From positions 192,001 through 256,000 of the IMG/VR virus record IMGVR_UViG_3300021431_000076: DNA of 64,000 nucleotides; one strand, 5' to 3'. Below are positions 1,101-33,315 of this stretch, piece by piece. The stretch comes from a virus (Duplodnaviria > Caudoviricetes). Numbering within the stretch: the stretch's first letter is position 1; every line of letters begins with the position of its first letter. Made by a program: the position numbers and the translations under genes. Under the pieces are notes generated by a model that saw only the letters and a list, made by a program, of their open reading frames with translations, had not been told where the DNA came from and did no database searches.

Positions 1101-1124
1101 AGGAGAGCTCATATGAGCTCTCCT
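1101..1124 (+). terminator. intrinsic terminator hairpin
   Basis: aggagagctc-atat-gagctctcct perfect stem right after the stop at 1094. Confidence 0.7.
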
Positions 1125-1156
1125 GTATATTTTGTAATCATTAAAAATTTTAAGCA

Positions 1157-1171
1157 TATATTATAGTAGTG
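1157..1171 (+). promoter_or_regulatory. early-type phage promoter TATATTAT-N6-G
   Basis: Exact match to a motif seen at 12 intergenic sites with an invariant G six nt after the octamer. Confidence 0.7.
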
Positions 1172-1487
1172 AAAGAATATAGGGGCTTTAGATGAAAACG
1201 TCGGCCCAGGTTCGGAAAGTGCAGCATACCCACGGTGGTAGCCTGACCACAAAAAGGGAGATAGCACTTGCGTGCTGGAAGGGAGGAGATTCCATTGCAC
1301 TAGTTTAATTAATTTAAAAGGAAACCAAAAAAATTAATTAAATGAAAATGAAAAATGTGAATCAAAAAAGTAAAAGAAAAAAAGAAGATTAGTTAAGAAC
1401 AAGCGTACTCCGTGAGAGCCGGAGCTGGAATCTTTATAGATTCTGGGAAAGGAATAGTTCTGATCAAACTATTTCTTTCTTTTTTAT
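1171..1487 (+). ncRNA. putative structured non-coding RNA (~315 nt)
   Basis: Bounded by an early promoter and a terminator (1447-1485). GC-rich multibranch fold with a candidate pseudoknot. No long ORF. Confidence 0.6.
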
Positions 1488-1501: not shown

Positions 1502-1513
1502 GACAATAGAATA
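1502..1513 (+). promoter_or_regulatory. late-type promoter GACA-N6-TA
   Basis: GACA-atagaa-TA upstream of thyX, same spacing as the other late-type sites. Confidence 0.5.
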
Positions 1514-1545
1514 GCATTTATTCTATTTATAAGGAGAGGATCAAA

Positions 1546-2880
1546 ATGGCAGGATTCATTTTAGAAAAGTTCAAATCTCTTTTTTCTTCTAATAAAGATA
1601 AGAAGAAAGAAATCAAAGCAGAACAGGTAGATAGATCATCTGTTCATGTACTAAGTGTTTCTCCTAATGTGTATTTAGCATGTAGAGCTGCTAAATTATG
1701 TATTGGTAAAACAGTAACTGGTACTATTACAGATAGAATGAAGTACATAGAAAAAATAGTAGGTATGGGTCATGAGAGTATCCTAGAACATACCAATGTG
1801 GTTGCTATGATTATCTATTACAGTCCTATCTCTAAACCAGAGCAGTTTGCTGAAATTATTGCTAATGGTAAATATCTAGATATTATTCCTAAACAAGATG
1901 ATGAAAAAACTGTTGTTCTTATTGGTGGTTCTATTAGAGCTTATATGCATCTAGTAAGAGAAACAGATCAGAATAATATATACTTAGAAGATATTAAGAA
2001 GATTATGTATCAATCTATTGAGAAATGCTTCTTGAAATCTCTTATTGAAAAAGGATTACTTGATGAATCTGAATGTAACTTTATGACATATGCTACAGTA
2101 GATAAACATGTAGAAGATGATCAAGAACCATTACCAGAAATTATAGAAGATCCTAAAGAGAAAGAAAACAAAACTTCTGATCTTATATATATTACTGATT
2201 TTGATAAACTGTATAGAGATGTATTCTTACTCACTGATAGATATACTAAGAGAGAAGTAGTAAGAATGTGTCACTTTACATTCTTATTCCATGATATTTC
2301 TAGATCTTGTGGAAATCAGTTATGCAGACACCGTAATGGTATTACACAGGAATCTCAGAGATATGTAACTCATGAATATACTAAAGAGAAAGACTTTATT
2401 GATCCTATTAGAATGCAATTAGATGATAGATATAAGAATTTAGCTCCAAATCTTATAGAAAAATTCAATAAAGTAGACTTTAAGACTTATAAAGATATGA
2501 TTTCTGCTGGTATATTTAAAGAAGATGCTAGAGCATGGTTGCCAATGAATGTTACTACTAAGATTATGATGACATTCAATGGATTTACTTTAGCTAAATT
2601 CTTACATCTTAGAACTGCTAAAGGAGCACAATTAGAGATTAGAAATATGGCTAATGAAATGGTTCATCAGCTATTTACTAGTACAGAAGCATATATAGAC
2701 TTTATGGATACAGTATTAAAATTTGGATATGAAGATATAAAACCAGTATATACTCCTGATGCTATAGATGAGGAAATTGAAATTAAAACTGAATCATTTG
2801 AAGATTCTAAGATAGATGCAAATGAAGCAGAAAGACTTCTTAAAGTAGAAGAAGAATATAAGAATTTAGAAAAACATTAA
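1546..2880 (+). CDS. thyX: flavin-dependent thymidylate synthase (long form with internal insertion)
   Basis: GHESILEH motif; ISRSCGNQLCRHRNGITQESQRY; EDARAWLP; FLHLRTAKGAQLEIR. Confidence 0.85.
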   Translation: MAGFILEKFKSLFSSNKDKKKEIKAEQVDRSSVHVLSVSPNVYLACRAAKLCIGKTVTGTITDRMKYIEKIVGMGHESILEHTNVVAMIIYYSPISKPEQFAEIIANGKYLDIIPKQDDEKTVVLIGGSIRAYMHLVRETDQNNIYLEDIKKIMYQSIEKCFLKSLIEKGLLDESECNFMTYATVDKHVEDDQEPLPEIIEDPKEKENKTSDLIYITDFDKLYRDVFLLTDRYTKREVVRMCHFTFLFHDISRSCGNQLCRHRNGITQESQRYVTHEYTKEKDFIDPIRMQLDDRYKNLAPNLIEKFNKVDFKTYKDMISAGIFKEDARAWLPMNVTTKIMMTFNGFTLAKFLHLRTAKGAQLEIRNMANEMVHQLFTSTEAYIDFMDTVLKFGYEDIKPVYTPDAIDEEIEIKTESFEDSKIDANEAERLLKVEEEYKNLEKH

Positions 2881-4058: not shown

Positions 4059-4105
4059 AGTCTAGACTAAATAAAAGACTATGAGAAAGGAGGAAATTGA
4101 TATTT

Positions 4106-7100
4106 ATGGCAAGCAATAGCATTATGGACTATCTTAAAAATGTTGGAGAATCTGTTAAATTTGCTGCTATTGAAAGTGTAACTGAAAAAACACCTAATTT
4201 ACGAAAAGTATTTAGTGAAAATAATAAAAAATATATTCAAGAAGTATATAAAGATGTTAATCAACATAGACAAGAACTAAATATGATTGATCGCATTAGA
4301 AATGCGACTGTTTTTAAACAAATATCTGTAGGTTGGGACAATTTAAAGGATTCCATTAAAACTGGTAAATTCAAAGATGATTCTAGAAGTACTGGTTTTG
4401 ATGAGATGGAAATGATGTTCGCAATGATGGGTGATGACTTCTTAGGTGGAGATTCTGATCTTATAGAATCTGAAATGAATGGAGAAGAAACAGGCTCAAC
4501 AAATGAACATAGAGTCCGTGGTATCCCAGAAATCACTAAAGGTGATGCTCTTGTTGCAACAGCATCAGCTACAGCAACTAGAAATGCAGCTTCTTCAATA
4601 TCTAAAGCTATTGTCAGATCTGCTGAATTAACAGATATGACAGCTAGAAAGTCCACAAATTTACAATTAAGGGCCCTTCAACAACAAGCAAACATTTTAT
4701 CTGGTGGTTTTCAACAACTATCTAGTTCATTGCATACCATAAATCAATTTAACGAACAAGTAGTTTTAACCCATGCTCAAAATTCTAGGATGTTTTATGA
4801 ACAAGCTACTCAATTAGCTCAAGAAAGAAATGCAATACTCAAAGAAATGCTAGAAATGCAACGTGAAACATTCGGTGCTACAATGAGATCTAATCTATCT
4901 TCTGATGCAAATGATTTGTCTAAAATGAGTAAAATCTTTGATAAAGAAAAAGGATTTGACTTAAGAGCATATATGAATCTAATGCAAAAGAGAATGAAAG
5001 AGACTCCTATCGGAATGGTAATGATGTCTATCAAGATGTTGCCTATGATGATAGGAGAAGTAGTTCAAAATCCATTGCATTATATTGCTAAGATGGGTAT
5101 AGATTCAATTATAGATAATAGTCTTAAAAAGGCTATATATAATATAGATCAATCAATAAGTGGTATGATATCTACTGGATTGACTAAGTTAGCTAACTAT
5201 GGTAAAGATAAAGCTACCAAGAATACATTACTAGGTCAAATAGCTGGTTTTTTTGGTCTACGAGATGAGAATACCAGACTATCTGCAGTAGATACTTCTA
5301 AGTATAATAAAGAAGCTATGCAATGGAATGGCATTGCTCAAAAAGCATTAGTAGAAGTAATACCAGGTCATTTAAGAAGAATAGAAGCTGCTCTTACTGG
5401 TGAAGCTGAAAGAGTTTTTGATCTTCAATCTGGTAAATGGTCTACAATGAAAAATGTAGCAAATGTAGAAAAAGATATAGATAGAAAAGTATTCAAAGAA
5501 ACTTTTTCTAAAGAAAAGAATCAACTTCTTAATATGATGAATTTCAATAGTAGAGAAGATAAACGAGGATGGATAAATGCTCTTGATAACTTCTTTAAAG
5601 GAGTTAAAAATAGAGGTATGATTGATTATAACCATATTAGAGAAAAATCTAGTGAATATGGTGATAATGAAAATATAGTCAAAGCTATAGCATATTTAAT
5701 ACATTCTGGTGGATTAGATTCTTCTCAAATTTTTAATCTTACAAATAAGATCAATGAAGGTAATGCTAAGAAAGCTGCAATGATAAGAAATTTAAACCCA
5801 TCTAATCAATCTCTTGTAACTGAAGCAGTTAATAATTCATATAATGCTAAATGGGCTGCTGGTACTGGAGCTCAATATAAAACTATAACTAATGAAGATG
5901 GTTCTACGAGAACTTATCAAAAAGCTGACAAGAATGGAAGATGGACTTCTTTACCTATCAATGATTTATCCAAACTTACTGATACCAGAGGATATACATT
6001 GTATGATTATCAATATAATATAATGAATCTTCTTATGGATATCAGAAGTGGTGGAGGTTTTGGTTCTGGAGGAGGATCTGGAAGAAATAAAAGGAGTAAA
6101 CAAAAAACCATACCTTCTACATTTGTACCAGTTCAAACAGGAAATCCATATGAATATACAGATGAAGAATTAGATGATTTAAAAACATCTCCTAATAGAC
6201 AACATGCTGCCAACTTAGTGCAAAAAGCTCAAGCTAAATCAGAATCTAAACGATTATTATTGCATCCAGACAAAAGTGGGTTAGATGAAGAAGTCAAACT
6301 TCCTTTCTCTATAGAAGATATAAAAAATGCAAATGAAGAACAGCTTGCAGCAATTATATCTCATATGAATTTTGCTGGTCAAACTAGTAAAGAATATAGA
6401 GCTAATAAGAAAGTAGATTCTTCTGGTGGAATATTTGGTAATCTTAAATCTGCTGCTAGTGGTCTAGGTATTGATAGTTTAGATAGCTTCATGGAAGATA
6501 TGCAAGAAGCCACTTCTATTGCAGATAAGTTCAATGTTGTTGGCGAAGCATTAAGATCAATGACTTCTGCTCCTCAAAAGATATTAACTTCAGTTCTTAC
6601 TGAAGCAGATAGATTTATGTATGAATTTATGTTTGGTAATCCTGCTGGTACTGAAAAGGATGAGAATGGTCAACCAATAGAAGGATTCTTTGGTAAAGTT
6701 ACTAATGAATTTGGAAAGACCATGAATAATCTTAATAATAAATTCAATGAGTGGTTCAAAGACACATTCAAAAAAGGTGCTGGAGGAATTGCTGGATTTT
6801 TCAAAGGAGTACTTGAAGATTATTTTGATATTGATATAGATAAAAAAGTTGAAAATGCTGAACGTCATGTAAAGAAATATGCAAATAAAGTCAAAAAAGG
6901 AGCTTTGTCTGCTGGTGCTGATTTATTTGGCATTGCCAAAGAAGCAGTATTAGGAACAGCTCAAGATATGGGTATTTATGAGCCAGACGAAGAAGAAAAT
7001 CAATCATCACCACCTCCTACTACTGCATATAGAGGTATTAGAAAATATGATTCTAAATATGGCTTAGGTATAGTAGGTCCTGGAGAAAAGATTATATCTC

Positions 7101-10100
7101 CAGGTAGAGGAAAAGTTTTAGATAATACTACTGGTTATAAAGGTTATCTATTACATGAAGGAGATTCTGTAATTCCTTCTTATTTAAATCCATCAAATGC
7201 AGGAAGAGGAAGAGTAACATCTCAATCTTTAGAATCTCAAGCAAGAAATGAAAATGCACTAAAAGACAGATATATGTCTGGTGGTTCTATTCCATTTGTT
7301 GGCACTTTTGCTCAAGGTGGAACAGTTAGAAAAAAAGTAGGTGGATGGATAGATGATCTTATAGATTCAGAAAATAAAGAAGATAACACTCCTGATTTAG
7401 ATAAGCAAAAGAAATCAAGAGGATTTTTCCACAACTTCAGAAATTGGCTTACTGGTTACAATGAGCCAGAGTTCAATGAAGATCAAATTAAAATGCAAGA
7501 ATTTATCAAAAATATAGTAAATAGTGCTACTAAAGCTGCCATTGAAGCTAATGGTGGTATGTTTGAAGATGAAGAATCAAAAGGAAAATCTATAACTCAA
7601 GCTGGCTTTGAAATGGCTGGTAAATTAAGGAAAAGCAAAGTCGATCTTAATACTAATGAATTCCAAGAAGCATTAAAAGAAGTTCTCGCTATGAGTGAGA
7701 ATATCAAAGATCCAGATTTTAGAGATACACTTCAATTTATTTTAAATACTGCTGGTTATAAAGGTGAATTTGATACTGTAGATGAATCTAAGAAAGTAAG
7801 AAGATCAAGAAGAAATAATCTATTTGTCGGTGTAAATCAATTTATGGATACTGCTTTTGGTATTGACTCTCAAAAGGCAATTAAAGAAGCAGATAAAACT
7901 ATAAGAAAGAATCTACCAGAACTTGCTAAAGGTGGTACTCTTGGTGCTCTATTAAGTACAGTTCTTCCTCTTGGTGGACCTTTAATGGGTGCACTTGTTG
8001 GTGCTGGTGCTTCTGTATTAACTAATAGCAAATCGTTCCAATCTTATATGTTTGGTTCAGAAATAACAGATAAAGATGGAAATGTAATAGATAGAAAAAA
8101 TGATGGTATCGTATCAAGAAAAACTGTAAAAGCTATTCAAAGATATATGCCTGATGCTAAAAAATATGGTATCACAGGTGCAATAGCAGGTCTCGTTCTT
8201 CCCTTTGGTCCACTTGGTGGTTTGATGCTTGGTGCTGGTGCTTCTTTCTTAAAGAACAACAGCAGATTCCAGGAATTCATGTTTGGTGAAGAAGGAGGCT
8301 TAATCAATAAGGATAGAAAAGAAAGAATCAAGAAAGCTCTTCCAAATATAGGTGTGGCTACACTAGGAACGTTATTCCTCGGACCTTTTGGTATCGTAGG
8401 TAACGCTATGCTTGGTGCTGGTTTAGGTATTTTATCTACCACAGAATCATTTAAACGTATTATGCTCGGTGCAAAAGACAAGAATGGCGTAAGACGTGGT
8501 GGTTTAGCTGATATTATTAGAAGACAAATTACAGATCCATTTAAGAAGACAATGGATGATGCTAAAACAAGATTAGCCGCTTGGTTTAAAGACGATCTAT
8601 TTAATCCTTTAGCTAAAACTATTAAACCTCTTGCTAGAGTAATGACTGGAGAAGTTAAAGATATAGCAAGAAAAGCAGCTGAGTTTGTTTTTGGCAAAAA
8701 AGGTGAAAATCAAAAATCAATATTTGGTAGATTAGGTCTCAAATCTGTAGATAGAATGCTAGGATTAGTAAGAAATGCTGGAGGACTTGGAGCCTTTGGT
8801 TTACAGCAAATTGGTAATGTAATAGGTAAAGGTGCCCATTGGGCTGAAAAGAATATTGGTCAAAAAATGGAAAAACGAGCCTTTAGAAAAGGCTATATTG
8901 AAGGAGATACTACTGCTCAAGAAAGATTAGATAGAGCAGAAGAATTAGGTGTAAATGCAGATGATGCAAATCAATATGCTCTTGGTGGTCTAGATAAAAC
9001 TATTGCGAATATTTCTGCTGGACCAGATTCAAAAACTAAATTACAAGATCTATCAACTGCTATTAGTATGATGCAAGATCATCTTAATGGTACTCCGCAA
9101 AACATTAATCGACAAATTGTAGCTGAGAAAGATAATATAGAATCAATGTCAGAGAAAGCATATCAAGATTATATGAGAAAGAATCCAAACGCTAAGAATC
9201 CTCATGATATGCATAGAACTATAGAAAAATTCATTAATAAGATGAATAAAATTGGTGCTTCTGATGATTTCGATTTAGAACTTTCTAAAGGAGAAATTGC
9301 TAAAGAATTAGCAGATTCTGATCTTCCAGAAGAAGTAAAAGATCAACTCATGGCAGTCTGGGAAGAATCTGGTTCTAACATAGATAAATTAAGAAAAAGC
9401 AAAGCTCAATTAAATATCAATGGTGGTAAAGATGCATATAACTATATGGAAAGAATGGCTGCAAATGCCCTTGGCTATGAAGGAGAACTAAGTGACGAAC
9501 AAAAAGAAAGAATTAAAAAGATTCTTCAAAATCCAAACGCATTAGAAGCAATAACTCAAGAGCAAAGATTAAATAAAGAAAAAGAAGCTAATGATGATTC
9601 TGTTAATTCGCAATTAAAGAAACAACTCGACAATCCTGCAGATCAACTTATAACAAATAATCAGGAATTACAGATCAATGAATTGCAAGTAATGAATACA
9701 ACTCTATCTTATATTTCTAATCTATTAGCTGCTACATCTCAAGAAGATAAAGATAAGATAATTCAAGAATTCCAAAAAACAATGGATAAATATAATGGTG
9801 TTGCTAAGAGTGAAAAATTACAGAAGACCATAGAAGAATCTAAAGCATATGCTAATTCTATAGCAGCTCAAAAAGACAAAGATGATTTCAATACTGATAT
9901 AGGAGCAGGAGCAAATCAAAAAATTTACAATGATAGAAAATTCAATAGAGAAAATGCTTATCAAAATGACAGATTTGTTGAAATTATCAATAGAGAAAGA
10001 GAAGAAAAAGCTTATCTTGGTGAAAACTTAGATAAATATATAGAATCTATAGAACCAGAAGTATGGAAATTAGTTATAAACGAATCAACGTGGGATAAAT

Positions 10101-13100
10101 TTAAAAGAAATGCCAAAGAATTAGCTAAAGATCTTAGTGATGATATCACTCATATTTCTCAACAAGGTTATGCTGCTTTACTTACTGCAGATTTATATGC
10201 ACAAGATAAAGTTAATAAAGCTGCTAATTATGTGATGGATAATAAAGATGAAATAGCAAATGCTCCATTAGTAATCTTAAATGGTGTATTAGATGCAATA
10301 GCAAAATTAGGAGATAGTGGTATAGAACAGTTGGCTCAATTAAATGCTAAACTCCATGGAGATTTTTATGAAACTAAAGAAAACGCTATAACAAGAACTT
10401 TAGGAGAATTCAAATCATTCGATTCTTTATCTGATGATGAAAAAGCTGAATTAACTGGAAAAGATAAACCAGAACCTAATTCTATTAAAGCCATGAATAA
10501 CACTAAAACAACTTCTATGGTTGAAGATAATGGAAGAGTTGTTTTTGGTGATCCTAATGAAAACAAAAAACAAGAAGAAAATAAAAATCAAGAACAACCT
10601 AAAAAAGACGAAGAACCTAAAGAAGAACCTAATGCTCTTCATAGAATTCAAGAAGGTATAAAAGAAAAAGCAAAAGAAACTAAAGATGAAGTTAAAGAAA
10701 CTCTTAAAGACGAAGTAGAGAAAATAAAAGAAACTACTAAAGAATTAGTGGTAGAGCCTATAAAAGATGCAGCTACTAAAGTAAAAGATGAATTAGAATC
10801 ATTAGCAAATAGTATAAAAACTACTGCTCAGGTATTTTCAAAATTTGGAAATCCAATAGAAAATGTTGAAAAAGATACACATGATCAAATAGATAATAAA
10901 ACTGATAAAAACCCTCCAATAGCTACATATGGATTACCATTCTTTGATACATTTGCTGCTGGTGGAATAGCAGCAGCAGCTGCTAGTAGTGGTGGTGGAT
11001 CTCTAATGGGATCAATTTTCAAAGGTGCTGTTGGTGGAGCATTAGATCATTTCACTGGCGGTGATTCAAAAGATAAAAAAGAAGATTCTAATAATACAAA
11101 AGAAACTCAATCTAAATCAACTCCACAATCACCAGATATATCTTCTAATGATATAAAATCTGTTGGTGGATTAATAAGTTCATTAGTAAGTAAATCATCT
11201 GGTGGAGCTCCAGATATAAATTCAAAAGACAATATTTCTTATACATCTGATGCTGATGGTAATCCAATTGCTATCACTAAAGGTCCAGATGGAACTCCAA
11301 TGAAAGTTCGTAACAAAGACAATGCAATGATAGAAGAGAAACATAAAAAAGAATTCTCATTCAAAGAAAGATCAGCAAATGCATTAGAAGCAATTGCAGC
11401 TTCTATTGGAGCAAAAGCAAAAGATGCGGCTGGTACATTGGGTAAAGGTGCTGCTAAAGCTGGTGGAGGATTATTTGGAGGATTATTAGATTCTATTGGC
11501 GGAATATTAAATATGCTATGTTTAGGTTTGCCAGTAGGAACAATGCTAATTGGTGCTCTAAAATCATTACCAGGAAAAATATTCAAGTTCTTTGGTGGAA
11601 AGCTATTTGATAAATTCAAAGATAAATTACCTGATTCTATTTCTAAGAAAATAGGAAAAATGCTAGGCAGAGATGAAGATGACGAAGATGATGAGGATGA
11701 AGACGACGAGGATGATTCAAAGTCAAAAGATAAGAAATCAAAAAAAAAGAAAGATAAAAAGAAATCTAAGAAAGATAAAGATGATGAAGAATCTAATTCT
11801 ATAAAATCAGAAGCTAAGAAAAAGAAGAAGAAAAATGGTAAGAAAAAGAAAAAAGGTAAAAAAGCTGATTCTGTAGAAAATAATGAAAATGAAAATCAAC
11901 AAGAAGAATCTAATTCTATAAAATCAGAGGCTAAGAAAAAGAAGAAGAAGAAAGGTAAGAAATCTAAAAATAAGAAAGCAGACTCTGCAGATTCTGTAGA
12001 AAATAATGAAAATGAAAATCAACAAGAAGAATCTAATTCTATAAAATCAGAGGCTAAGAAAAAGAAGAAGAAGAAAGGTAAGAAATCTAAAAATAAGAAA
12101 GCAGACTCTGCAGATTCTGTAGAAAATAATGAAAATGAAAATCAACAAGAAGAATCTAATTCTATAAAATCAGAGGCTAAGAAAAAGAAGAAGAAGAAAG
12201 GTAAGAAAAAGAAACAGCAATCAACTAAATCAAATAATAAAGATAGTAAAGAAGAATCTAATTCTATAAAATCAGAAGCTAAGAAAAAGAAAAAGAAGAA
12301 AAAGGATAAGAAAAAGAAATCAAAAGGATCAAATTTAGTAAATGGAGGATTAGCAGCTTTATCCACTGCTGCTAGTTTAATAGCTACAAATGATAATTCA
12401 TTATTTGGTTCTATATTAGGATTTGATGATGAAGATGATGAAAAAGAAGATGACGCTAAAGATTCTGATGAAAATTCAGAAGATGATGATGAAAAAGAAG
12501 CTGAGAAACCTAATCATTATGCTAATATTTTCAATAATTTAAGTAAGATTATAGATAACAGTGATAAAGAAGAAGTAGATATAGATCCTTATATGGCTAT
12601 AATGCAATCTATAAATTCTATTTTACTTGGTGACGAAGAAGAAGAAAATGACGAAGATGATGACGACGAAGAAGAAGAAGAGGAAGAAGAAGTCAAAAGT
12701 AAAAAGAAAAAGAAGAAAAATAAAAAGAAATCTAAAAAAGAAACAAACGCAATCAAAGAAGAAGCTAAGAAGAAGAAGAAAAAGGGTAAGAAAAAGGCAG
12801 ACTCTGCAGATTCTGTAGAAAATGATGAAAATCAACAAGAAGAATCTAATTCTATAAAATCAGAGGCTAAGAAAAAGAAGAAGAAGAAGAAGAAAGGTAA
12901 GAAATCTAAAAATAAGAAAAAGAAAAAATCAAAATCTAGAAGTTCAATAGCAAATATAGCTGAATCAGGAGGAGCTGCTGCAGCAATTATTGATATATTA
13001 GGACCTGATGATGAAGAAGAAGAAGAAGAAAATGATGGTTCAAATTCAATTAAAGATATGATTGAAGAAGCTGATTTTTCAACTGGAACAGAAAAAGCAA

Positions 13101-16100
13101 AAGGGCGCAAAAAGAAAGGCAAAGCTTCAGAAGTAGCATCAAAAATAGATGAAATGACAAATTCTTCAAAAGCAGAGCAAAAATCTGCTGTTCAAATGGC
13201 TATTGGAAAAATAAAATCAACACTACAGACTGTTATTTCTGCAGTTGGAAAATGGTTCCCTGGTAAAGAAACAGCAACTGCTATAGATACTTTTTGTAGA
13301 AAGATTATAGGTAAAATAGCAACAGAACAAGGTGAACAGGCTATTGCTAAAGCTGTTGCAAAACAAGCAGCTTCTGCATCTGCTGGTGCAGCTACTATGG
13401 GAATTGGTACTGCTGTAGTTACTATTGGATTTGCTGCTACTGAATTTATTCATGGTTTTAATAATGCATCTGAATTGTTTAAAATAGCTGAAGCTGTTGT
13501 AACATTTGGAATGAGAACCTTAGCTGGTTTAGTTTGTGCAATTCATGCTGCACTCACTTCTATTCCTGTTGTTGGTATAGCAGTAGCTATATTTGTAGAT
13601 CCGGATAAATTATTAGAAGATGCTATAGATATAATTGGTCCTGCTGTTGGTATAACTAGACAAGATCTAGATAATTTGCGCAAAAGTGGACAAGATAAAA
13701 TTGATCAAGATGTAGCAGATGCTGCTGAACAAACAAATCTAAGCCCATCATATACAGATTCTATTAAAGCAGCTGCAGGTTCTGCAGTTGGTATGGTAGT
13801 ACAAGGAGCATCAAGTTTTGCTGGAATACTTGCTGATAAAGCTAAAGATGCTATGTCTAGTATTGGAGATGCTACAGGAAAAGCAATGAGTTTTGCTAAA
13901 GATACAGCAGCTGGTGTTGGTAACTGGATAAAAGAAAATGCATCTAAAGGTTATCAATTCTTATCAGATACTGCTTCTTCTGCATGGCAAACTGCTAAAA
14001 ACTATGGTTCAAAGGCATATGATACTGTTGCTAGTGTTGTAAGCGGTGCTAAAGATAAATTCTCTGGACTAGTAAGTTCTGCTAAAAGTTATGCTTCAAA
14101 TTTATTTGGTAAAGGTAAAAATGATCAAACCGATAATGGTTTATTTGGAACTGGAATACATTCTCAATTAGATCCTAAAATAGCAGGAATGCCATTCAAT
14201 AAAGCAGGAGATACAGAAAAACAAACTGTTAGAGATTCTGCTTGTGGTCCAATGGCTATGGCTAATGCTCTTGAGGGTTTGGGATATTCTATAAATGATA
14301 CAGATATACTCAAAAAGACTTTAAATGGTAAAGAAACTAATGGTGGTATGCCAGATTATGTATTATCTGAATATGCAAATAGACAAGGAGCCTCTACTAG
14401 AAATATTGGAACAAGTTATCAAGATCTAAAGGAATCTTTAATGAGTGGAAATCCATTAGTTTTAATGGGTCAAAATAATATAGGTGAGACAGATAAAGAT
14501 CCATTTGCTGAGAATCCTCACTATGTGACGGCTCAAGGTATAGATAAAGATGGATATGTAACAATCAAAGATCCAGAATCATATAATCCAATTAAGAAAT
14601 ATAAATTATCCGATATAGCTAAAACAACTACACTTGCTACTGAAGTAGGAAAAGGTAAATTTGGTAGATCTAGATATGGCAAAGGACCAACATTAGATGA
14701 GAATCCACCATTTGGTTCAATTGCTGCTGAATTGGCTAAGAGAACAGGTTCAAAACACCCCGAATTCTTCTGGGCTCAAATGATGCATGAAACTGGTGGA
14801 CCAGAAAACGAAAAGAAATGGAATGCTAAACATCCAGAATATGGTGATATTCATAACTATGGTGGATTTACATGGTATTCTGGTATGGGCGAAGAATATA
14901 AAGGACCTCCTCGTCCAAAGAGTGAAGGAGGATATTACGCTAAATTCAAATCAGATGCTGAATATGCTGATATGGCATTCAGAAAAGTCTATAAATCATA
15001 TGCAAATGAATTGGCTAAATGCAATACTGTAGAAGAATTTGCTGCAGTTCTTAAGAAACATGGATACTATGATGATACTGAAGCAAACTATGTAGCATGC
15101 CTTAATAGATGGCTAAATCAATATAAAGGAAAACTTGGCAATATTTCTGGTATGAGTATATCTGGAGATGCATCTAACACTTCTGCATCATCAAATGGAA
15201 CTTCTTCTACTGGAGGTAAATTTGGTGATAATAATGGTCAAAGTGTAGCTGGTTTCTTCAAAGCTATTTCTGATTCTTCAAAAATAATCAAGTCTAGTAT
15301 AGAAGCTGGAACTAAAAGAATATTTGGTAAAGGTAAAAGTAAATGGGGTAGAGAAAAATCAAATGGTACTGGAGAAGATATATATGCTTATCTAAAATCT
15401 AAAGGATTATCAAATCAAGCTATAGCTGGAATAATGGGCAACTGGTACGCAGAAAGTAAATGGAAATCATCTCTAGTTGAATGTAAAAAACCACCCTGGA
15501 GAGAAATCAGTTCTGATACAATGACTATAGACGGTAACACTGGATATGGTTTAGCTCAATGGACTTATATAACTAGACAGCAAAAATTACATGAATTTAT
15601 GAAATCAAAAGGTTTACAAGATTCAGATTACAAAGGTCAAATAGATTTTGTGTTCTCTGGACAAGATGGAGATATAAATCCTGTTATAAAATCTATGGAT
15701 AAAATGTCTCCAGAAGAAGCAGCAAGAGAATTTTTAGATAAATATGAACATAAAATATTAGATACAAAAAATACAGAGAGGTATCATCTATCAGAAAGAC
15801 AAAAGGCTGCAAAAGAAGTATTTGAAAAACAAGGAAAAGGCATGAGTGGTGTTAGCTCCTTAACAGGATCCTCCTCAGGATCATCTTCTAATGCTTCTGC
15901 AGATGTTCAAGATGAAAAAGAAACTGGAATTTTTGGAGCATTAGCTCAATTAGCAAAAAGAGTAGGATCTATTATCAATATTTTTGGTAGTGGAGATAAC
16001 GGTAGTTCTGGTGGAGGTAGTAATAGTATTGGTGGAGGAGCAAATGTAACAGAAATTGCCGATAAAATCATAAAAATGGCTAATGCCTATGCAAATTCCC

Positions 16101-19100
16101 CAATAACATATGCGATGACAAATCCTGTAGCTGTACCTCCAGCCAAAGGATCATGTGATTGTTCAGGAATGGCAATGTCTTGCTATAAAGCTGGTGGAAT
16201 AGATATAACTAGAACTGCAGATACTCAATATGAATTTTTCAAGAAACATAATGCAATATACAAAGGCGATATTAAAAGTTTACAACCTGCTGATCTGGTA
16301 TTTACAAGAGATTCTAGTGGTCAAATAGATCATGTATTTGTATACATTGGTAATGGAAAAGCTGTAAATATGGGTCAGAATCATAGAGAGCGTGGAAATT
16401 TAGCAGGATTAAATTCTGCAGGTGGAGATGCTGTCTATTATAATGGATGGGAAAAAATTCAAGCTGGTATAGATTATCATAAAGGTGGAGCAGAATTTGG
16501 TAGCTTAACTAAACTTTGTTCTGCATTAGGCCTTGGATCTTCATCTTCTGGAGGATATCATGGCGGAGATAAGAGATCAAAGACTACTAGAATTATTATA
16601 CACCATACAAGTGGTTCTAAGACAAGTGATCCAGATCCATCAGCAGCAGAAATCAATAAATGGCATACCGCTCCTCCAAGAAATTGGAATTGCATAGGAT
16701 ATCACTATGTAATTCGTAAAAATGGTTCAATAGAAAAAGGTCGAAATGAAGATGAAATAGGTGCTCACGCAGAAGGGGCTAATAATGATTCTATTGGTAT
16801 TCATGTTGGTGGGGAATTCATGTATTTCAAACCAACTGAAAAACAGATAGAATCTCTTATCAAATTGATACAACAACTTTGCAAGAAATATAATATTCCT
16901 ATAGATCGTAAACACATTTTGGGTCATAGAGAAGTAGGTCAAACTGATTGCCCTGGGGATAATCTATATAATCAATTAGATTCTATAGTTGCTAAAGCAG
17001 CTGGTAGCGGTAAAGGTAAATATAGATTTGGTAGAGGCAAACCAAACGTACCAAGTCTAATAGAAAAGAAATCAAATAGTTTTGGTAAAGGAAAATCAAA
17101 ATATGGTAGAGCTGGATATCTTAATTCAACTGGAAATGTTGGATTTGCCAATTATGACTATTTAAAATCAAACACAATCAATCCTCCTACTAATAATTCA
17201 GATTATAAATTCACAAATACAGATTTAACTCAAAAGCATTTAGATGCTGCTCTTAAAGGAGAGACATATCAAAGTCGTAAAGATCCTATTACTGGTAAAC
17301 TTCTAACAGCTAAAGATATGGAAACTGCTGCAAAAGCAGGTGTAACTCAAAATGTTAAAAAAGAAGATATCAAATCTCTAGAAGAATGGAATAAAGCTAA
17401 AGAAGAAGGAAGAGAAGTTCAAGTATCAGCTCCAGAAAATTCTGTAATTGATATAGCTGAACAAGGTAAACAAGAATCTCAAACTAATTTAATGGATCAA
17501 TTCTTTGGTGGTGTTGGAGAAAAATTAAATGCAATAGAACAAAAATTAGCTCCTATTAAATCTGGAATTCTAAGTAAACTTGGATCAGTTATAACAGAAA
17601 AATTTGGCAAATTCTCTAATCTAATTGGAGATCCTTTAGGAATGTTTAAAGGATTCTTTGGTTCAAAAGATAATTCATCTTCTTCAAGTGCTGATGGTTC
17701 ACATGGTGGTGGAGGAGGAACCTTTAATGGTGATGCTACAGCTATACCAGCTACAGGTTCTGCTGCTGCTGCTTTAAAGAAAGCCCTCAATTGTGAAATT
17801 ACTAGTCAATTTGGTCCACGTGATGGAGGAGTTCACCATGGTATAGATTATGGTATTGGTACAGGAACTCCTGTTCCTACTGTAACTGATGGTGTAATTG
17901 ATGATATAGGATCTCAAGGTGGAGCTGGATATGGTAACTATGTTGTCGTAAAAGATAAGAAAGGTATGTATCATATCTATGCACATTTAAGCAAAAACGA
18001 TCTAGCTAAAAAAGGCGATTCAGTTAAAGCTGGTCAAATTATAGCTAAATCTGGTCATAGTGGTCATTGTATTCCAGATGGTCCTAATGGATCACATTTA
18101 CACTATGGAATCTATAATAATCCTAATTGTGCTGCTGGTGACGGATGCATTAATCCAAATTCTTATAAAATAGATGGATTGAGCTCTTCAGGTCAAGGAA
18201 AATATGGTAGAGGTAAATTAATCAAGATAAATCCTGTCAAAACTAAAGGTTCTGATAGAGGTGGAGTCGATACAAAGAAATATGTTCCTAAGAGTGGTAG
18301 AGGCAAATTCAAATCTACTGGATTAGAAGATCTAGATATTACTAGAACTGCTACATATCCAGATTTCCCTAAAGAAGCTAAAAGTCCAGATAACAATTTT
18401 GGTATATCTGATGAGATGATCAAACAATCTAAATTTGGTCAAGGTAAATATGGTAGAGGATTTGATCTAAATAGTGTATTAAACGTACTAGGAACAATAG
18501 CACAATTTGCAAATCTTAATAGGAATCCATTTATTGTGGGTGGTGGATTTGCTGGAAACAATGCTCAACAGAAACCACAGAATAATATAAAACAAAATCA
18601 AAGCAAAAAGAAAGAAGTAGATAAGAAGCTCATAGCTCCTAATGGATTGCAATATACACAAAATGATATTGATTATATACTCAAGAACTCTGATAAATTT
18701 GGTGGAGCTAAAACTATAGATGATGCTATAAAGATTCTAGAAAAAGACAAAAAATATACAGAAAAACAAGAAGACACTAAGAAACAGATTGCTCCTAATG
18801 GATTGCAATACACTCAAAATGATATTGATTATATACTCAAAAATCCTAACTTATTTAATGGGGCTAAAACAGAAGAAGATGCTATTAAGATTCTATCTAA
18901 AGATAAGAAATATACCGAGAAACCAAAAGATACTAAGAAAGAAGAAAAGAAAACTGCGACTCAAGAACAAAAAGAAACAGCTCTTAAAGAATATAAAAAA
19001 CGAATAGAAACATTCTCCAATGTGCCAGTAGCTCAGCAGAGATTGATGTTGCAAATGGGTCTTGGTCCAAAAGTTCCTCAAATTCTATTAGAAGAAGAGG

Positions 19101-33184: not shown

Positions 33185-33239
33185 ACAATAGAATACCAGA
33201 GTACCTTTGGTACTCTGGTAATTTTTTAATTTATAATTA

Positions 33240-33254
33240 TATATTATAGCAGTG
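33240..33254 (+). promoter_or_regulatory. early-type promoter
   Basis: tatattat-agcagt-G. Confidence 0.7.
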
Positions 33255-33315
33255 ATAAAGTAAGAGACTCATCATGGTGATGATCTCATGTTTAAAAAAA
33301 GAAAGGAGCTTTATC

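What the first reader, a model, noticed from the sequence alone, without database searches (positions are those of the whole stretch)
1171..1487. Stand-alone, pseudoknotted ~315-nt phage ncRNA with its own early promoter and terminator
Seen: a GC-rich island between TATATTAT-N6-G (+1 about 1171) and a terminator (1447-1485). It folds into a 5' hairpin (gggc...gccc, about 1183-1207) and a multiway junction closed by agtgca 1218-1223 / tgcact 1296-1301. The junction arms are gtggt/accac (1235-1250), tagcac/gtgct (1262-1276) and ggaa/ttcc with an exposed GGGAGGAGA loop (1281-1289). The loop agcctg (1240-1245) is complementary to caggtt (1207-1212), giving a candidate pseudoknot. An A-rich linker (possible 16-aa ORF MKMKNVNQKSKRKKED, 1342-1392) and two more hairpins (1408-1424, 1425-1446) follow. 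Inference: an early functional RNA that I cannot assign to a family. It could be a protein decoy (the GGA loop suits CsrA-type binders), an anti-defence RNA or a ribozyme-like fold.
Basis: partly seen in the sequence, partly recalled or inferred. Interest (0 to 1): 0.8.

Follow-up and report, generated by a model that had tools for sequence, protein, structure and literature searches.

The report
Small structured RNA gene, jumbo phage
The GC-rich patch in front of thyX is a real, separately transcribed small non-coding RNA gene found only in a narrow group of 330-350 kb gut/rumen phages; it fits no catalogued RNA family, only its first ~130 nt are conserved, and its job is still unknown.

Summary
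The GC island, the promoter and the terminator are real. The plus strand folds better than shuffles (z = -4.1).

Five sequence variants from related phages show that only window 1169-1297 is conserved.
- a 5' hairpin with two compensatory pairs;
- one long irregular hairpin with an invariant base (helix 1217-1222 with 1264-1269);
- a tip that is swapped wholesale between near-identical phages;
- an exposed, very strong Shine-Dalgarno-like tract with AUU/UUG 7-8 nt later and a 2-8 codon ORF whose peptide is not conserved.

The pseudoknot is possible but is not kept in every variant.

The cassette is missing from relatives that share the same thyX context. In one relative a second RNA cassette separates it from thyX. 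It is therefore not a thyX switch.

Rfam, ARAGORN and BLAST find no known family. No RNA data exist.

Verdict: a new member of the known kind "intergenic small RNA of jumbo phages", mechanism unproven. This scan had already reached much the same verdict on the 342-kb relative.

The parts
1101..1124 (.). Terminator hairpin of the upstream 600-aa gene. It is palindromic and conserved in all relatives, with or without the RNA cassette.
   Evidence: 10 pairs, 6 GC. The same hairpin is seen in L005-L007, L009 and L018.
1133..1168 (+). Promoter of the RNA: an A/T-rich upstream tract plus the TATATTATA box (1157-1165). The transcript probably starts near G1169.
   Evidence: The box is conserved in L002, L009 and L018. 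The box with an N3-4 [GT]GA tail recurs 28-38 times genome-wide, mostly before SD-led ORFs. The start site itself is inferred, not measured.
1169..1297 (+). Conserved RNA core, the only part shared by all five variants.
   Evidence: Covariance model R1 scores 143.5 bits here and 88-148 bits in L009, L019, L018 and L038. There is a single copy per genome.
1183..1207 (+). P1, the 5' hairpin: a 5-bp outer stem, a 3-nt bulge and a 4-bp inner stem.
   Evidence: Two outer pairs switch G-C to A-U on both sides. The inner stem is rebuilt with different letters in each variant. 9 of 25 positions differ between the window and L002, yet pairing is kept.
1209..1276 (+). Long irregular hairpin:
- P2a: 1209-1211 with 1274-1276, and 1213-1214 with 1271-1272
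- P2: 1217-1222 with 1264-1269
- purine-rich internal loop
- P3: 1229-1231 with 1256-1258
Evidence: P2 pairing probability is 0.57 (window), 0.42 (L002), 0.89 (L009), 1.0 (L018) and 0.97 (L038). P2 is lengthened to 8 bp in L018. The base letters never vary, so there is no covariation test for P2.
1232..1255 (+). Variable apical domain. Here it is a 5-bp hairpin (1235-1239 with 1246-1250) with the loop 1240-1245.
   Evidence: Three unrelated forms exist. The hairpin form occurs in the window, L002 and L009, with loop-length variants (an X8 contig included). L018 has a plain 9-nt loop. L038 has a different ~45-nt branched insert between flanks identical to L002.
1277..1293 (+). Purine tract with extended complementarity to a Firmicute-type 16S 3' tail (a very strong SD-like element).
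   Evidence: Duplex energy with the 16-nt anti-SD tail is -21.0 kcal/mol (window, L009) and -19.8 (L002, L018). That ranks 3-4 among 418 gene start regions of this genome. Two sequence versions both keep it. The host tail sequence is assumed.
1294..1308 (+). Mini-ORF region: AUU at 1294 (4 codons then UAA) or UUG at 1295 (2 codons then UAG).
   Evidence: Read directly. In L002, L009 and L018 the AUU frame is 8 codons and ends in UAA at the foot of their terminator. The UUG frame is 3-5 codons. The peptides are not conserved.
1303..1446 (+). Window-specific 3' extension:
- an A/T-only 13-bp hairpin (1303-1343)
- an A-rich tract with a 16-codon ORF (1342-1392)
- hairpins at 1408-1424 and 1425-1446
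   Evidence: No counterpart in L002, L009, L018 or L038, and no other copy in the genome. Many unrelated low-complexity contigs pile up on 1308-1390.
1445..1485 (+). Intrinsic terminator that ends the window's transcript.
   Evidence: It resembles the terminator of a second, unrelated cassette in L009 (79% over 43 nt) and of that cassette's copy at G000:331395-331621.
1502..1513 (+). GACA-N6-TA motif, the likely separate promoter of thyX. It is followed by an inverted repeat and the thyX RBS.
   Evidence: Conserved before thyX in every relative, with or without the RNA cassette. The motif lies within 90 nt upstream of 15 of 302 gene starts, against about 1.2% expected. Its function as a promoter is inferred.
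1546..2880 (+). thyX (flavin-dependent thymidylate synthase, 444 aa). It is a neighbour, not part of the RNA unit.
   Evidence: Pfam Thy1 E = 2.1e-36. PHROG thymidylate synthase.

Best explanation
Window 1133-1485 is an independent transcription unit for a small non-coding RNA. It belongs to a small, uncatalogued family carried as a dispensable cassette in the spacer before thyX of some 330-350 kb gut/rumen phages.

Shown:
- It has its own copy of the genome's recurrent promoter and its own terminator, and no conserved ORF on either strand.
- It is present in some close relatives and absent from others.
- The conserved ~130-nt core consists of a covarying 5' hairpin, one long irregular hairpin with an invariant base and a swappable tip, and an exposed purine tract that is among the strongest 16S-complementary sites in the genome. 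A near-cognate start and a 2-8 codon ORF follow that tract.
- In this window the family's usual terminator has been lost. The transcript runs through about 140 nt of lineage-specific sequence to a terminator of another cassette type.

Inferred (about 0.3 on its own):
- The RNA works in trans as a ribosome- or protein-engaging RNA.
- The invariant helix base and its purine-rich internal loop would be a protein or ribosome contact surface.
- The very strong SD-like tract would dock a 30S subunit. That could stabilise the RNA, as strong SD sites do in Bacillus, or load ribosomes onto a mini-ORF.
- Long-range base-pairing to a phage mRNA is the less likely mode of action.
For: Independence from thyX:
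- The upstream gene ends in its own terminator.
- The promoter box recurs 28-38 times, mostly before genes.
- The unit has a terminator with a T run.
- thyX keeps its own conserved GACA-N6-TA motif in all relatives.
- The cassette is absent from L005-L008 and L039-L045, which have only ~90-120 nt before thyX. It is present in L018, whose thyX context matches cassette-free L005.
- In L009 a second cassette with its own promoter and terminator lies between it and thyX.

Non-coding:
- Indels of 5, 2 and about 20-45 nt, plus loss of the ATG, break every frame.

Constraint:
- There are two compensatory pairs in P1, and 98% of cells are paired against 20-43% for slid controls.
- The base of the long hairpin is invariant. 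Third codon positions of thyX differ by 11-12%, and P1 differs at 9 of 25 positions.

Fold:
- P2 dominates in three variants and is co-dominant in two.

SD-like tract:
- It ranks 3-4 of 418 gene start regions, in both sequence versions.

Precedent:
- Ribosome binding at a strong SD protects RNA from RNase J1 in B. subtilis hbs (PMC5737220).
Against: - No transcript data exist, so the start site, the ends and the abundance are all inferred.
- There are only five close variants (about 93% genome identity). P2, P2a and P3 never vary, so they cannot be tested by covariation.
- The shuffle control can be exceeded through relatedness alone.
- The 16S tail used is an assumed Firmicute-type sequence; the host is unknown.
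- The strong SD-like tract lies 3' of the structured core, so it could not shield the core from a 5' exonuclease.
- Promoter, leader, SD and a dead start codon is also what a decayed gene start would look like.
Confidence: 0.6

Rival explanations
1. It is an orphan gene start. The cassette would be the promoter, long leader, RBS and mutated start codon of an early gene whose body was deleted. It would now be a transcribed relic with little or no function.
For: - Its layout (the same promoter, a 5' GUGA-A-rich start, a structured leader, a strong SD, and a start-like triplet 7-8 nt later) matches real early genes of this genome.
- The ORF is only 2-8 codons and its peptide is not conserved.
- The cassette is dispensable.
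- The window copy has lost its terminator and gained unrelated sequence.
Against: - P1 shows compensatory changes, and the hairpin base is invariant while neighbouring segments and synonymous sites diverge.
- The SD-like tract keeps top-1% anti-SD complementarity in two different spellings.
- The AUU/UUG context is identical in all five variants.
- No full-length version with a gene was found in IMG/VR, JGI metagenomes or GTDB genomes.
Confidence: 0.15
2. It is a cis-acting leader or attenuator that gives thyX conditional early expression. The structured core would sense a ligand, a protein or ribosome load. The purine tract would compete with the terminator's 5' arm for its pyrimidine 3' arm. 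A ribosome on the mini-ORF would decide read-through.
For: - L002, L018 and L038 have the order promoter, structured domain, terminator, thyX.
- In L009 the MFE pairs the purine tract with the 3' arm of its terminator in place of the terminator.
- In L002, L009 and L018 the 8-codon AUU frame stops exactly at the foot of the terminator stem.
Against: - The cassette is absent from relatives with the same thyX and the same thyX upstream motif.
- In L009 another full cassette with its own terminator lies in between.
- In the window the terminator and the spacing are replaced, so the proposed coupling is lost.
- The antiterminator pairing is weak in L018.
- Purine and pyrimidine arms pair by composition alone.
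- There is no riboswitch hit in Rfam.
Confidence: 0.1
3. It is a trans-acting antisense or decoy RNA whose variable tip is the business end. The conserved base would be a scaffold. The swapped apical loop would pair with, or mimic, a host RNA or defence component that differs between host strains.
For: The apical ~25-45 nt are replaced wholesale between L002 and L038 while 51 nt on the 5' side and about 90 nt on the 3' side stay identical. Three unrelated tip forms plus loop-length variants exist.
Against: - No complementarity above chance to the phage's own genome: the best match is 13 nt at E = 0.5.
- The tips have no match elsewhere in IMG/VR.
- The host is unknown, so host targets cannot be tested.
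- Free variation of a helix tip is also what absence of constraint looks like.
Confidence: 0.12
4. It is a CsrA/RsmA-type protein sponge that works through GGA loops.
For: The window and L009 show three overlapping GGA motifs in a 9-nt hairpin loop at 1281-1289.
Against: - L002, L018 and L038 spell this tract without any GGA and without the GGAA/UUCC stem.
- There is a single cluster, not the many repeated GGA hairpins of known sponges.
- No Rfam CsrB/RsmY/RsmZ hit was found.
Confidence: 0.03

Closest known systems
Intergenic small RNAs of jumbo phages mapped by dRNA-seq or ONT-cappable-seq (phiKZ, 201phi2-1, PA5oct; PMC8244752, PMC11512511, PMC7318152)
   Same: A short ORF-less unit between genes of a giant phage, with a phage-type promoter and an intrinsic terminator, and with unknown function. 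The promoter layout (an extended -10-like box plus a T-rich tract upstream) resembles the phiKZ early motif described in PMC8244752.
   Different: There is no sequence or structural relation. The host group is different (SD-rich, AT-rich, gut/rumen). Here no transcript has been observed, whereas those RNAs were seen or predicted from RNA data.
Ribosome-protected RNAs with very strong SD sites in Bacillus (hbs mRNA, PMC5737220; STAB-SD of cryIIIA, cited from my own knowledge)
   Same: It carries an SD-like tract with unusually long 16S complementarity that need not serve protein output. It has a structured 5' region. The predicted pairing of the A-rich 5' end with the U-rich 3' end recalls the hbs 5'/3' UTR contact.
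   Different: In those cases the SD sits near the 5' end and shields a downstream coding region. Here it lies 3' of the conserved structure and is followed by only 2-8 codons.
Lambda bar minigenes (cited from my own knowledge)
   Same: A phage-encoded strong SD followed by an ORF of a few codons.
   Different: The bar minigenes start with AUG and were defined by toxicity in pth mutants. Here the start is AUU or UUG, the ORF length varies from 2 to 8 codons, and a large conserved structure precedes it.
SRP RNA helix 8
   Same: The stretch at 1207-1226 loosely resembles the 5' strand and GGAA loop region of helix 8. An earlier first-stage note of this scan, on the copy in the 342-kb relative, also remarked on this.
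   Different: The GGAA here has no closing pairs, the stretch instead forms the 5' strand of P2a/P2, and no SRP model scores even at E up to 10.

Membership tests
Any Rfam 15 family | Score at or above the family's gathering threshold | tested here: not met
   There are 0 hits in the whole window. In permissive mode on 1050-1600 and on L009:1930-2500, nothing overlaps the core apart from noise at E of 0.4 or worse.
tmRNA / tRNA-like | Acceptor and T arms, and a tag reading frame | tested here: not met
   ARAGORN finds none in the window and only one tRNA-Arg elsewhere in the genome. There are no Rfam tmRNA hits.
SRP RNA | Helix 8 hairpin closed on a GNRA-type loop, with symmetric and asymmetric loops | tested here: not met
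   No pairing closes the GGAA at 1214-1217. The models give no hit at E up to 10.
Riboswitch or cis leader of thyX | Stable association with the regulated gene, and an expression platform directly in front of it | tested here: not met
   The cassette is absent from L005-L008 and L039-L045, which have the same gene order. It is separated from thyX by another cassette in L009. The platform is replaced in the window.
Riboswitch or cis leader of thyX | Alternative terminator and antiterminator pairings conserved | tested here: inconclusive
   The antiterminator-like pairing wins in the L009 MFE but not in L002, L018 or the window. The arms are purine and pyrimidine runs that pair by composition.
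CsrB/RsmZ-type sponge | Several conserved GGA motifs presented in hairpin loops | tested here: not met
   GGA is lost from the tract in L002, L018 and L038, and there is only one cluster.
Stand-alone phage sRNA gene | Own promoter of a class used elsewhere in the genome | tested here: met
   The box with its tail recurs 28-38 times. About 28 copies are followed by an SD-led ORF within 15-200 nt.
Stand-alone phage sRNA gene | Own intrinsic terminator, with the upstream gene terminated separately | tested here: met
   Terminators lie at 1101-1124 and 1445-1481. Relatives carry a different terminator right after the core.
Stand-alone phage sRNA gene | No conserved ORF | tested here: met
   Frame-breaking indels and start loss affect all variants. 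The mini-ORF peptides differ.
Stand-alone phage sRNA gene | A discrete transcript observed | not testable with these tools
   No RNA run is listed among the holders. Only DNA contigs could be laid on the stretch.
Structured RNA under selection | Compensatory base changes in the proposed helices | tested here: inconclusive
   P1 has 2 of 5 outer pairs compensatory and its inner stem rebuilt. P2/P2a have 10 of 11 pairs invariant and one one-sided change. There are only five sequences.

The most novel reading that the evidence does not exclude
The RNA is a modular early-phase device. A fixed scaffold (P1 plus the invariant helix base) docks a 30S subunit or a host or phage protein through one of the strongest anti-SD-complementary tracts in the genome. 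An exchangeable apical cassette retargets it between host strains. That would make it a programmable ribosome- or defence-directed RNA of a kind not yet described in phages.
Probability: 0.1. Interest if true: 0.75.

Novelty: new member of a known kind. Interest (0 to 1): 0.45.

Why it matters
Very few small RNAs of lytic and giant phages have a known function, and almost none come from uncultivated gut or rumen phages. This one offers a compact, testable object: a 130-nt core with a covarying hairpin, an invariant helix base, a tip that is swapped as a block between otherwise identical alleles, and an exceptionally strong ribosome-binding tract with hardly any ORF behind it. It also shows that the spacer before thyX is a landing site for movable RNA cassettes, because a second cassette family sits there in one relative and elsewhere in this genome. 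If the ribosome-docking or swappable-tip reading held, it would be a new way for a phage to interfere with host translation or defence. If not, it is one more orphan phage sRNA.

Tried and rejected
- Rfam: 0 hits at gathering threshold. The permissive searches gave only noise around the upstream terminator and the 3' terminator.
- ARAGORN found no tRNA or tmRNA.
- BLASTN ('distant' mode) of 1100-1560 against 50,697 GenBank phage records found no match.
- Exact core words found only the 342-kb relative in IMG/VR and in JGI metagenomes.
- An 18-mer in GTDB genomes gave 5 hits, all chance matches with no flanking similarity.
- A gapped pattern of the two P2 strands in IMG/VR gave 16 hits. All lie in unrelated coding DNA, about the number expected by chance.
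- The apical variants of L038 and L018 gave 0 hits in IMG/VR.
- The covariance model found a single copy in G000 and in G001, so there are no paralogues.
- No RNA holder is listed among public runs. Only DNA contigs could be laid, and they added loop-length variants but no expression data.
- The antisense target search within the phage genome found nothing above chance.
- A K-turn, an SRP helix 8 and a tmRNA PK1 were each considered by eye and rejected, because the required closing pairs or GA tandem are not there.
- A 38-aa ORF (1192-1308) and the minus-strand ORFs over the core are not conserved.

Full report
**Where the window lies.** The window is bases 192001-256000 of a 332,775-bp IMG/VR phage record with 31% GC. 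The finding sits between an unannotated ~600-aa gene that ends at 1094 and thyX at 1546-2880 (Pfam Thy1, E = 2e-36). A 5,536-aa lysin-domain giant protein follows further on.

**The observation.**
- GC rises to 46-56% at 1151-1300, against about 30% around it.
- The scan finds a terminator for the upstream gene at 1101-1124 and a 15-pair terminator with a T run at 1445-1481.
- The plus strand folds to -81.6 kcal/mol (z = -4.1); the minus strand gives z = -2.9.
- The promoter box at 1157-1165 is not a one-off. With its short tail it recurs 28-38 times in the genome, and about 28 copies are followed within 15-200 nt by an SD-led ORF. The start site near 1169 and the 'early' label are inferences. 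The layout (an extended -10-like box with a T-rich tract upstream) resembles the phiKZ early motif (PMC8244752).

**Known families.**
- Rfam gives nothing at gathering threshold in the whole window. In permissive mode it gives nothing but noise, both here and on a relative.
- ARAGORN finds no tRNA or tmRNA.
- BLASTN against GenBank phages finds nothing.

**Relatives.** ThyX and the upstream protein were used to pull contigs from IMG/VR, ENA, JGI and Logan. This gave five distinct versions of the RNA:
- the window;
- L002 (identical in L019 and L020);
- L009;
- L018;
- L038.

A bovine-gut contig adds a loop-length variant. The phages are close: thyX is about 93% identical in DNA, and third codon positions are 88-89% identical.

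**What is conserved.**
- Only 1169-1297 is shared.
- The GGAA/UUCC hairpin is absent from L002, L018 and L038.
- The A-rich linker, the 16-codon ORF and the two hairpins (about 1303-1446) have no counterpart anywhere.
- In the relatives a different terminator follows the core after about 35 nt.
- The window's terminator instead resembles that of a second, unrelated cassette. That cassette lies in tandem behind the core in L009, and a homologue sits at 331395-331621 of the window's own genome.
- The simplest history is a tandem of two cassettes whose middle was replaced in the window lineage.

**The conserved fold.**
- P1 (1183-1207) is well supported. Two outer pairs change on both sides, the inner stem is rebuilt in each variant, and 9 of 25 letters differ between the window and L002 with pairing kept.
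- The rest is one long irregular hairpin: P2a (1209-1211 with 1274-1276, and 1213-1214 with 1271-1272), P2 (1217-1222 with 1264-1269), a purine-rich internal loop, P3 (1229-1231 with 1256-1258) and a tip.
- P2 has pairing probability 0.89-1.0 in L009, L018 and L038, and 0.42-0.57 in L002 and the window.
- L018 lengthens P2 to 8 bp.
- The only change in this region (L009) falls in a bulge of the P2a model but breaks the 1262-1276 arm.
- The base letters never vary, so covariation cannot test P2. With five close sequences the statistics are weak.

**The tip.** It comes in three unrelated forms. Between L002 and L038 the ~45-nt tip is replaced wholesale while 51 nt on the 5' side and about 90 nt on the 3' side are identical.

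**The pseudoknot.** The loop keeps AGCC, which can pair with 1209-1212, in the hairpin-type tips and in L018, and the one variable partner base stays pairable. L038 has no such loop sequence, and the contact competes with P2a. The pseudoknot therefore remains possible but unproven.

**The purine tract.**
- Bases 1277-1293 are complementary to nearly the whole 16-nt tail of a Firmicute-type 16S rRNA.
- The duplex energy is -21.0 kcal/mol here and in L009, and -19.8 in the differently spelled L002/L018 version.
- That ranks 3-4 among 418 gene start regions of this genome. The host tail is assumed.
- Seven to eight nt later come AUU and UUG, conserved in all variants, followed by only 2-8 codons with no conserved peptide.
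- GGA is not conserved in the tract, which speaks against a CsrA sponge.

**Independent of thyX.**
- Relatives at 68-80% and at about 45% ThyX identity keep the gene order but have only 90-120 nt before thyX.
- L018 has the cassette although its thyX context matches cassette-free L005.
- L009 has a whole second cassette in between.
- thyX keeps its own GACA-N6-TA motif everywhere. That motif is about four times enriched upstream of genes.

**Targets and expression.** No complementarity above chance to the phage genome was found. No paralogues exist. No RNA-seq run holds the stretch (recorded only as tried).

**Verdict.** This is a real, independent, structured small RNA gene of a narrow phage clade. 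Its conserved part is about 130 nt, not 315.
- My best guess at how it works is engagement of a ribosome or a protein through the invariant helix base and the very strong SD-like tract. I give that mechanism about 0.3 on its own.
- The rivals are an orphan gene start, a thyX attenuator and a variable-tip antisense or decoy RNA.
- Earlier agents of this scan reached 'new sRNA gene, job unknown' on the 342-kb relative (e1-5656787, e1-5656803).

Noticed in passing
L009:2215-2445; G000:331395-331621 (outside the window): A second, unrelated GC-rich ORF-less cassette with the same promoter box, a 9-bp pairing between its 5' end and an internal segment, and its own terminator. In L009 it sits in tandem behind the RNA core. 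Its homologue (72% over 234 nt) lies near the far end of the window's own genome. RNA cassettes appear to move between spacers.
   Followed up: partly
window 33228-33310 (G000:225240) and G000:1635, 91872, 268959: Several early genes share a leader design. The first transcribed bases (GAUAAAG) pair with the bases just before the AUG, around a hairpin and an exposed SD. Other first-stage notes report the same design.
   Followed up: no
window 1502-1527: A GACA-N6-TA motif followed by a 9-bp inverted repeat, directly before the thyX RBS. It is conserved in all relatives. The motif lies upstream of 15 of 302 gene starts, so it may mark a second promoter class with an operator.
   Followed up: partly
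window 1546-2880: ThyX is long (444 aa). Only about residues 232-376 match Pfam Thy1. Hundreds of metagenomic homologues of 440-570 aa share this long form, many on contigs of about 300 kb.
   Followed up: no
window 4097-20707: A 5,536-aa ORF with lysozyme, NlpC/P60, amidase and M23 peptidase domains (domains seen on the homologues in L009 and L010) and long K/E/D-rich repeat blocks.
   Followed up: no
L010:1-33, L011:1-62: Two independent assemblies break 33-62 nt before thyX, at the variable spacer. This fits strain heterogeneity of the cassette region.
   Followed up: no
G000:44628(+), 82213(-), 154941(-): Further copies of the promoter box that are followed by a terminator or by no SD-led ORF. 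The genome seems to carry about 4-6 ORF-less early units.
   Followed up: partly
L039-L045: More distant relatives (ThyX about 45% identical) carry two radical-SAM genes directly after thyX. These are absent from the window.
   Followed up: no
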